Origin: a virus
UHGV virus genome: UHGV-2170543
Reading direction: 5' to 3' (one strand)
Length of the DNA stretch: 33,672 nucleotides
Shown in pieces: positions 29,386 to 29,712 of this stretch (position 1 is its first letter; every line of letters begins with the position of its first letter). The notes beneath the pieces were generated by a model, which was not told where the DNA came from, searched no databases, and worked only from the letters and a program-made list of their open reading frames with translations. The position numbers were made by a program, and so were the translations under genes.

Positions 29386-29712
29386 GTGCAGTACGTTAAA
29401 CACGCTTGTGGTTGTGAATGCCGACTGCGGCGGTATTTTGGCGTGACAGCGCAGGTGCCGTATACCGATGTCTGGACGCATAAACCGGTGCAGTTCTATC
29501 CCGGGAAACATCCGTGCGAAAAACCGGCAGAAATGCTGCAGCAGATAATCAGCGCAAGCAGTCGTCCGGGAGACCTGGTTGCAGATTTTTTTATGGGCTC
29601 AGGTTCAACGGTAAAAGCGGCACTGGCGCTCGGGCGTCGTGCGATTGGCGTTGAACTGGAGACCGGACGTTTTGAGCAGACAGTCAGGGAAGTTCAGGAT
29701 TTAATCGTTTGA
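29386..29712 (+). pseudogene. 5'-truncated DNA methyltransferase remnant (C-terminal FxGxG AdoMet motif only)
   Basis: HPCEKPAEMLQQII and DLVADFFMGSGSTVKAALALGRRAIGVE resemble the C-terminal motif I region of N6/N4 MTases; no DPPY-type catalytic motif upstream. Confidence 0.45.

What the first reader, a model, noticed from the sequence alone, without database searches (positions are those of the whole stretch)
29386..29712. Methyltransferase remnant marks the 3' edge of the kinase/phosphatase insertion
The ORF after the phosphatase terminator retains only the C-terminal AdoMet-binding block (DFFMGSGST) of an N6/N4 DNA methyltransferase; no catalytic DPPY-type block is encoded upstream. Related phages often have an intact methylase upstream of the tRNA cluster, so the cassette appears to have replaced the 5' part of this gene.
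Basis: partly seen in the sequence, partly recalled or inferred. Interest (0 to 1): 0.35.

Follow-up and report, generated by a model that had tools for sequence, protein, structure and literature searches.

The report
Deleted methylase stub, not cassette scar
This is an ordinary dead gene fragment, the last quarter of a prophage DNA methylase; it was cut down by a 1.18-kb deletion that is separate from the neighbouring kinase/phosphatase insertion.

Summary
Window 29425-29712 encodes only residues 255-349 of a 349-aa M.EcoGII-type adenine methyltransferase. The AdoMet-binding block DFFMGSGST (29584-29610) is present. The DPPY catalytic block and the target-recognition domain are missing, and no N-terminal piece lies elsewhere in the window. 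RefSeq already marks it as a pseudogene "missing N-terminus".

The interpretation does not hold.
1. An empty-site prophage (E. coli CE10) places the kinase/PP2C cassette at 27659-29344. Eighty bases of phage backbone, a terminator plus a spacer, separate it from the truncation junction at 29424|29425.
2. Nineteen E. coli genomes (E24377A, STEC388 and others) carry the same cassette, and the flank checked is undeleted. The three inspected have an intact methylase.
3. The same junction occurs in about 70 genomes and in phage PhiR49_2. The two examples inspected have a different Q gene and no kinase cassette.

The stub comes from a roughly 1.18-kb deletion that also removed a 65-aa ORF. It sits on a short patch resembling the CE10/PhiR49_2 allele inside an E24377A-like backbone, so it probably spread by homologous recombination. 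Ordinary and already annotated; low interest.

The parts
29425..29712 (+). Methyltransferase remnant: codons 255-349 plus the stop of an M.EcoGII-type beta-class adenine methyltransferase; it contains the AdoMet-binding motif I (DFFMGSGST, 29584-29610)
   Evidence: Pfam PF01555 positions 134-219/221; tblastn to intact relatives, aa 254/255-349/352; 89/96 identical to M.EcoGII aa 255-349; RefSeq pseudogene 'missing N-terminus' at the same coordinates in ML35 and 55989
29420..29433 (+). Deletion junction, GCCGA|CTGCGGCGG, with the break between 29424 and 29425. Relative to E24377A it removes about 1180 bp (L007 4226-5405): the spacer, a 65-aa ORF and methylase codons 1-254
   Evidence: Alignments and anchor positions; the same junction is in 102-104 of 5426 E. 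coli genomes
29376..29424 (+). Backbone spacer that follows the terminator in undeleted relatives. It is non-coding there, but here it supplies the first 13 codons of ORF 29386-29712
   Evidence: Homologous to L002 2262-2319, L006 4640-4688, L007 4176-4225 and L010 2531-2580
29345..29375 (+). Backbone intrinsic terminator (tR'-like hairpin plus T-run). It is homologous to the single terminator of the empty site and is not part of the cassette
   Evidence: Fold dG -21.7 kcal/mol, z -5.1; aligns with L010 2502-2530 of the cassette-free CE10 prophage
27659..29344 (+). Inserted kinase/PP2C cassette (1686 bp, 33-41% GC). It has its own leading terminator at 27671-27700, a Ser/Thr kinase at 27771-28535 and a PP2C phosphatase at 28532-29275
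   Evidence: Boundaries from local alignment to the empty site L010; Pfam; composition; hairpin fold; present in 50 of 5426 genomes
26929..27624 (+). Antiterminator Q (PF06323 type), with promoter-like hexamers at 27608-27636 that overlap its end
   Evidence: Pfam E=5.6e-84; promoter scan (a consensus match only)
29762..30011 (+). tRNA cluster: CAT anticodon (annotated tRNA-Ile in RefSeq), Arg-TCG and Arg-TCT. It lies immediately downstream of the remnant, as it does downstream of the intact gene in relatives
   Evidence: ARAGORN; Rfam; annotations

Best explanation
The feature is a non-functional relic of a prophage late-region gene for an M.EcoGII-type non-specific N6-adenine DNA methyltransferase (349 aa). 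A single illegitimate deletion of about 1.18 kb joined the non-coding spacer just downstream of the tR'-like terminator to codon 255 of the methylase. That deletion removed a 65-aa ORF, the catalytic DPPY motif and the target-recognition domain, leaving only the C-terminal AdoMet-binding lobe. The deletion is a separate event from the kinase/PP2C insertion, which sits 80 bp upstream on the other side of the backbone terminator. The deletion allele was probably brought into the cassette-bearing prophage lineage, or the cassette into the deletion lineage, by homologous recombination between lambdoid prophages. The remnant is still transcribed passively as part of the Q-antiterminated late transcript that runs into the tRNA genes, but it makes no active enzyme. 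Shown here: the truncation, its junction, the cassette boundaries, the coexistence of cassette and intact gene, and the mosaic pattern. Inferred: single origin plus recombination, lack of translation or function, and passive transcription.
For: Only the C-terminal 95 codons are present and there is no N-terminal part in the window. RefSeq marks it as a pseudogene. It is 93% identical to M.EcoGII residues 255-349 (sequence from PMC11551740 supplement; family described in PMC5778455). The left flank of the junction is homologous to the post-terminator spacer of undeleted phages. The deleted interval is L007 4226-5405. Four allele combinations exist: an empty site with the intact gene (CE10, L010); cassette with undeleted flank in 19 genomes, intact gene confirmed in the three inspected; cassette with the deletion in 30 genomes; and the deletion junction in a second sequence form in about 71-74 genomes, whose two inspected examples (CE10, PhiR49_2) lack the kinase cassette. 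Over the 335 bp from the junction to the tRNA, mismatches per quarter are [1,1,13,16] against the CE10 remnant and [7,2,10,1] against intact E24377A. The 11 nt left of the junction carry the CE10/PhiR49_2 variants. The two remnant types share no start codon: GTG 29386 lies next to a 13-bp indel, PhiR49_2 is annotated from a downstream GTG, and no Shine-Dalgarno-like sequence precedes either in-frame GTG.
Against: The remnant frame carries no further disabling mutations and keeps the original stop codon, so the sequence alone does not exclude a residual role. Some depositors annotate the 92-112-aa product as a protein. Single origin versus recurrent deletion rests on a handful of aligned loci, not on all of the roughly 104. 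Only three of the 19 cassette-plus-undeleted genomes were inspected through the whole methylase gene. Only two of the roughly 71-74 genomes with the second junction form were inspected for their upstream context.
Confidence: 0.92

Rival explanations
1. One reading: insertion of the kinase/phosphatase cassette itself destroyed the gene by replacing its 5' part, so the remnant marks the cassette's 3' edge.
For: The remnant is the next coding feature after the phosphatase, and 30 genomes carry both the cassette and the truncation.
Against: By comparison with the empty site, the cassette ends at 29344. The backbone terminator and spacer (29345-29424) lie between it and the junction. Nineteen genomes have the cassette with the flank beyond the left breakpoint undeleted, and the three inspected have the intact methylase. 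The same junction occurs in PhiR49_2 and in a CE10 prophage, which lack the cassette and have another Q type.
Confidence: 0.02
2. The short product is functional: a stand-alone AdoMet-binding mini-protein (for example a regulator, SAM binder or anti-restriction factor), or one half of a split methyltransferase whose catalytic half is encoded elsewhere.
For: The reading frame is open with an intact FxGxG motif and the original stop codon. The allele persists in about 2% of complete E. coli genomes. Many short database entries exist.
Against: The window holds no N-terminal or DPPY partner. The two remnant types share no start codon or Shine-Dalgarno sequence. Most short database entries are labelled 'partial', and many sit on very short contigs. 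RefSeq calls it a pseudogene. The intact form is far commoner, in at least 1670 genomes.
Confidence: 0.03
3. The deletion is real and independent of the cassette, but it arose more than once at the same hotspot in different prophage lineages, rather than once followed by recombination.
For: The junction sits in two backbones that differ in Q type, in terminator sequence and by a 13-bp indel just upstream. Lambdoid late regions are highly recombinogenic, so ancestry is hard to read.
Against: The junction is identical to the base. The diagnostic variants GTGAATGCCGA on its left and the first ~168 bp on its right are near-identical between the two backbones (2 mismatches) yet differ from the cassette-bearing intact allele (9 mismatches). 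This is the pattern of an imported patch. No notable microhomology at the endpoints would make the site a hotspot.
Confidence: 0.08

Closest known systems
M.EcoGII / M.EcoGI (REBASE names): prophage-encoded non-specific N6-adenine DNA methyltransferases of E. coli O104:H4 C227-11, 349 aa, beta class (PMC5778455)
   Same: The remnant is 89/96 identical to M.EcoGII residues 255-349 and has the same C-terminus...REVQDLIV. The paper describes a large family of such genes on E. coli prophages and names phage 1720a-02 as a close relative. In that phage the gene follows Q, and the remnant matches it at 89.9% nucleotide identity.
   Different: Only the last 27% of the protein is encoded. The N-terminal DPPY catalytic motif and the central target-recognition domain are deleted, so it cannot be an active member.
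Methylase gene upstream of the tRNA cluster (annotated ileZ in AP012536) in Stx-converting and other lambdoid phages (e.g. Stx2_EH2201 LC567829, E24377A and CE10 prophages)
   Same: Same position and order: Q, terminator, spacer, 65-aa ORF, methylase, tRNAs. Nucleotide identity over the retained part is 89-94%.
   Different: The window lacks the 65-aa ORF and methylase codons 1-254, and it has a kinase/PP2C cassette inserted upstream of the terminator.
Truncated 'DNA adenine methylase' of phage PhiR49_2 (PV340570, 92 aa) and the RefSeq pseudogene CE10_RS12855
   Same: Identical deletion junction, and a near-identical first ~170 bp of the remnant.
   Different: Different Q type (933W/QuuD-like), different terminator stem, a 13-bp indel in the spacer and a different 3' end (..DLVSQNG). 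There is no kinase cassette: CE10 has an ompC-like porin insert and PhiR49_2 has none.

Membership tests
Beta-class N6/N4 amino DNA methyltransferase (Pfam PF01555; M.EcoGII family) | N-terminal catalytic motif IV (DPPY) | tested here: not met
   Intact relatives have TDPPYF at aa 34-39. The window has no match to aa 1-253 on either strand, and the Pfam match covers only profile positions 134-219.
Beta-class N6/N4 amino DNA methyltransferase (Pfam PF01555; M.EcoGII family) | Central target-recognition domain between motif IV and motif I | tested here: not met
   Residues of about 110-254 in intact relatives fall inside the deleted interval L007 4226-5405.
Beta-class N6/N4 amino DNA methyltransferase (Pfam PF01555; M.EcoGII family) | C-terminal AdoMet-binding motif I (FxGxG) | tested here: met
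   DFFMGSGST at 29584-29610; PF01555 E=3.5e-24.
Beta-class N6/N4 amino DNA methyltransferase (Pfam PF01555; M.EcoGII family) | Descent from the family: high sequence identity to a characterised member | tested here: met
   89/96 identical to M.EcoGII aa 255-349; 94-95% to the E24377A, STEC388 and EH2201 proteins. It is therefore a pseudogene of this family, not an active member.
Beta-class N6/N4 amino DNA methyltransferase (Pfam PF01555; M.EcoGII family) | Methyltransferase activity | not testable with these tools
   Needs a methylome or an enzyme assay. Absence of motif IV predicts no activity (established knowledge of amino-methyltransferase catalysis).
Split or two-subunit methyltransferase | A separately encoded partner carrying the missing catalytic half | tested here: not met
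   tblastn of four intact proteins against both strands of the window found nothing with E<0.7 outside 29422-29727. The rest of the genome was not available.
Scar of the kinase/PP2C cassette insertion | The truncation junction coincides with the cassette boundary, and the cassette never occurs with the intact gene | tested here: not met
   The cassette ends at 29344 and the junction is at 29424|29425. Nineteen genomes have the cassette with an undeleted flank, and three were confirmed to carry the methylase.

The most novel reading that the evidence does not exclude
Loss of the non-specific m6A methylase was selected rather than neutral. The reason could be avoidance of toxicity on leaky late transcription or of m6A-dependent type IV restriction in new hosts. 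Alternatively, the retained 3' stub is kept because it supplies processing or expression signals for the downstream tRNA cluster, or a SAM-binding mini-protein. This would explain why one deletion allele has been passed between unrelated prophage backbones.
Probability: 0.04. Interest if true: 0.4.

Novelty: already known. Interest (0 to 1): 0.1.

Why it matters
It matters little by itself. The result corrects an annotation-level story: the methylase was not lost through the kinase/phosphatase insertion. It also gives base-level boundaries for both events. Prophages of this type would package DNA that lacks the blanket adenine methylation M.EcoGII-type enzymes can provide, which could change their sensitivity to host restriction; this was not tested. 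The locus is a tidy example of lambdoid mosaicism, since all four combinations of two neighbouring markers exist. It also shows that the position just before the terminator downstream of Q, which precedes the methylase, receives different cargo genes in different prophages.

Tried and rejected
1. I considered a two-step or templated deletion, because GCCGACTGC at the junction also occurs at the NADC codons of the EH2201 methylase N-terminus. A simple deletion already explains 7 of those 9 bases, leaving only 2 extra matches (about 1 in 16 by chance), and the E24377A allele lacks the match. Rejected.

2. I first took the 29349-29375 terminator to be cassette-borne, because its stem differs from those in PhiR49_2, EH2201 and PSS-15. 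One search showed homology to cassette-free genomes starting at that hairpin, and the CE10 empty site showed it is backbone. Revised.

3. The protein database search with the 108-aa ORF listed only short entries of at most 189 aa, most of them labelled 'partial'. It says nothing for or against a functional short family.

4. The cassette DNA was searched in the phage collection in distant mode and gave no match.

5. I considered a dN/dS test on the remnant but did not run it. Within each remnant type there is almost no variation, and differences between types reflect selection on intact ancestors.

6. ML35 was fetched as a possible source of the window. Its upstream region differs from the window's left part, and no complete genome covers 6000-30000 in one piece.

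Full report
**What is there**

The window's right half is a lambdoid prophage late-regulatory region. In order it holds:
- a DUF968 gene
- RusA (26579-26938)
- antiterminator Q (26929-27624; PF06323, E=5.6e-84)
- a Ser/Thr kinase (27771-28535 by RefSeq's start)
- a PP2C phosphatase (28532-29275)
- a strong hairpin plus T-run (29349-29375; dG -21.7 kcal/mol, z -5.1)
- the ORF in question (29386-29712)
- three tRNA genes (29762-30011)

The region 27600-29800 is 100% identical to E. coli ML35, VR50, BEN2908 and others.

**Checking the observation**

The 108-aa ORF hits PF01555 (N6_N4_Mtase) at E=3.5e-24, but only over profile positions 134-219 of 221. Four intact relatives (349-359 aa) were run by tblastn against both strands of the window. 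They match only with their residues 254/255 to the C-terminus, at 29422/29425 to 29709/29727. For the three close relatives E is about 1e-57 at 94-95% identity. Nothing else in the window scores better than E=0.7.

The AdoMet-binding block DFFMGSGST lies at 29584-29610. The TDPPYF catalytic block of the intact proteins (aa 34-39) has no counterpart. RefSeq already annotates 29425-29712 in ML35 and 55989 as a pseudogene: [quoted passage not shown]. Codons 1-13 of the ORF (29386-29424) are not methylase sequence.

**What the parent gene was**

The intact gene sits in the same place in many lambdoid and Stx phages. The order there is Q, terminator, short spacer, a 65-aa ORF, a 349-359-aa methylase, then the tRNAs.

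Murray et al. (PMC5778455) describe M.EcoGII. It is a 349-aa beta-class non-specific adenine methyltransferase on an E. coli O104:H4 prophage, silent during normal growth of the host strain. They note a large family on E. coli prophages, including phage 1720a-02. That phage is among the DNA hits to the remnant, and its methylase follows Q.

The M.EcoGII sequence was taken from the supplement of PMC11551740 (the stored text has some reading errors). The remnant is 89/96 identical to its residues 255-349 and ends in the same ...REVQDLIV. The remnant is thus a relic of an M.EcoGII-family gene.

**How it was truncated**

In undeleted relatives the terminator is followed by a conserved spacer...TTTTTATGcCTGAAA..CAGTACGTTAAACGCGCTGGTGG.TGCGAATACCGG|TCTTTCAGC... 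(L002, L006, L007, L010).

The window has the same spacer up to ...GTGAATGCCGA (29424). It then continues directly with CTGCGGCGGTATTTTGG, which is codon 255 onward of the methylase. Relative to E24377A the missing interval is L007 4226-5405, about 1180 bp. That interval holds the rest of the spacer, the 65-aa ORF (a weak TrmB-like winged-helix hit, E=0.002), the intergenic region and methylase codons 1-254. The endpoints show no notable microhomology.

**Is the kinase/phosphatase cassette responsible?**

No, for three reasons.

1. A second prophage of strain CE10 (L010) provides an empty site. It has the same DUF968-RusA-Q arrangement and no kinase or phosphatase: one terminator, the spacer, the 65-aa ORF, an intact 349-aa methylase and the three tRNAs. 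Local alignment shows the window matching this empty site up to 27658 and again from 29345.
   - The cassette is therefore 27659-29344, 1686 bp at 33-41% GC against about 50% around it.
   - It brings its own leading terminator at 27671-27700.
   - The hairpin at 29349-29375 is the backbone's own terminator.
   - Eighty backbone bases (29345-29424) lie between the cassette edge and the deletion junction.

2. The cassette coexists with the undeleted region. E24377A and STEC388 carry it at 96% identity, followed by the terminator, spacer, 65-aa ORF, an intact 349-aa methylase and tRNAs. Strain 503025 matches E24377A at 100% over PP2C through the first three quarters of the methylase. A 301-bp probe spanning the cassette's 3' end and the sequence beyond the left breakpoint is fully covered in 19 genomes.

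3. The same junction exists without the cassette. A 100-bp probe across it finds 102-104 of 5426 complete genomes.
   - Thirty match at 99% or more. This equals the number of genomes with the 99%-or-more cassette variant.
   - About 71-74 carry a second form. I inspected two examples, phage PhiR49_2 and a CE10 prophage.
   - Both have a 933W/QuuD-type Q and a different terminator stem. One has no insert and the other an ompC-like porin gene.

All four combinations of the two markers therefore exist. The intact arrangement is much commoner: at least 1670 genomes cover the 65-aa ORF plus the 5' three quarters of the methylase.

**One event or several?**

Over the 335 bp from the junction to the first tRNA, the window differs from the CE10 remnant by [1,1,13,16] mismatches per quarter. 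It differs from the intact E24377A allele by [7,2,10,1].

Left of the junction, the last 11 bases (GTGAATGCCGA) carry the CE10/PhiR49_2 variants, not E24377A's GCGAATACCGG. Further upstream, the terminator and the 13-bp stretch absent from CE10/PhiR49_2 follow the E24377A type.

So the junction sits on a short patch, roughly 200 bp, that resembles the CE10/PhiR49_2 allele, inside an E24377A-like, cassette-bearing backbone. The simplest reading is one deletion event later moved between prophages by homologous recombination. Recurrent deletion at the same base is not excluded, but it is less likely.

**Function**

A protein with only motif I and no motif IV or target-recognition domain cannot methylate DNA; this follows from established knowledge of amino-methyltransferases. 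Several further points argue against a residual role:
- The two remnant types share no start codon. GTG 29386 lies beside the 13-bp indel, and PhiR49_2 is annotated from the downstream GTG.
- Neither in-frame GTG has a Shine-Dalgarno-like sequence.
- The window holds no partner half.

The frame is otherwise intact, which fits a recent deletion or frequent recombination with intact alleles. I conclude that the remnant is a passive pseudogene, transcribed only as part of the Q-dependent late transcript leading to the tRNAs. That transcription is inferred from its position.

**Verdict**

The causal story is wrong. The feature is ordinary and already annotated as a pseudogene of a well-characterised family.

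Noticed in passing
window 27659-29344: The kinase/PP2C pair is a discrete low-GC insert of 1686 bp placed just after the promoter-like site downstream of Q. It lies between its own terminator (27671-27700) and the backbone terminator. The kinase hits PADLOC defence models mad6 (6e-40) and PD-T4-6 (1e-34); the PP2C resembles Stp1-type phosphatases. The insert is in 50 of 5426 complete E. coli genomes and has no match in the phage collection. A kinase paired with a phosphatase as a prophage defence-like cargo may deserve its own look.
   Followed up: partly
L006 3825-4640 (PSS-15); L004 1770-3470 (CE10); L010 2439-2530 (CE10, empty site): The same position downstream of Q, before the methylase, holds different cargo in different prophages. 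PSS-15 has a MazF/PemK toxin flanked by two terminators, CE10 has an ompC-like porin on the opposite strand, and the other CE10 prophage has nothing. It looks like a recurrent insertion point.
   Followed up: partly
window 7130-8402 (- strand): A second copy of the tRNA cluster (CAT, Arg-TCG, Arg-TCT) lies at 7411-7660 on the minus strand. It is 492/555 identical to the plus-strand copy including flanks. It belongs to another lambdoid late region in which an AraC-family regulator gene (7689-8402) occupies the place where the methylase sits.
   Followed up: partly
window ~23190; N runs 3834-3861, 4208-4227, 26134-26218: In the complete genome 23CRST038, window 6000-23189 maps to one locus (3.01 Mb) and the kinase region to another (2.04 Mb). 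No complete genome covers 6000-30000 in one piece. The window may therefore be a rearranged or recombinant prophage or a scaffold join. It also contains three runs of N, one of them inside the DUF968 gene.
   Followed up: no
window 30087-30277 and 30555-30764 (+): Two tandem copies of the Rfam sRNA family STnc100 (136 and 165 bits) lie between the tRNA cluster and the SASA/DUF6645 esterase gene.
   Followed up: no
L007 4296-4493 (absent from the window): The deletion also removed a conserved 65-aa ORF that precedes the methylase in the intact loci inspected. It has a weak TrmB-like winged-helix hit (E=0.002), and a few genomes annotate it as a TrmB family regulator. Its role, possibly control of the methylase, is unknown.
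   Followed up: partly
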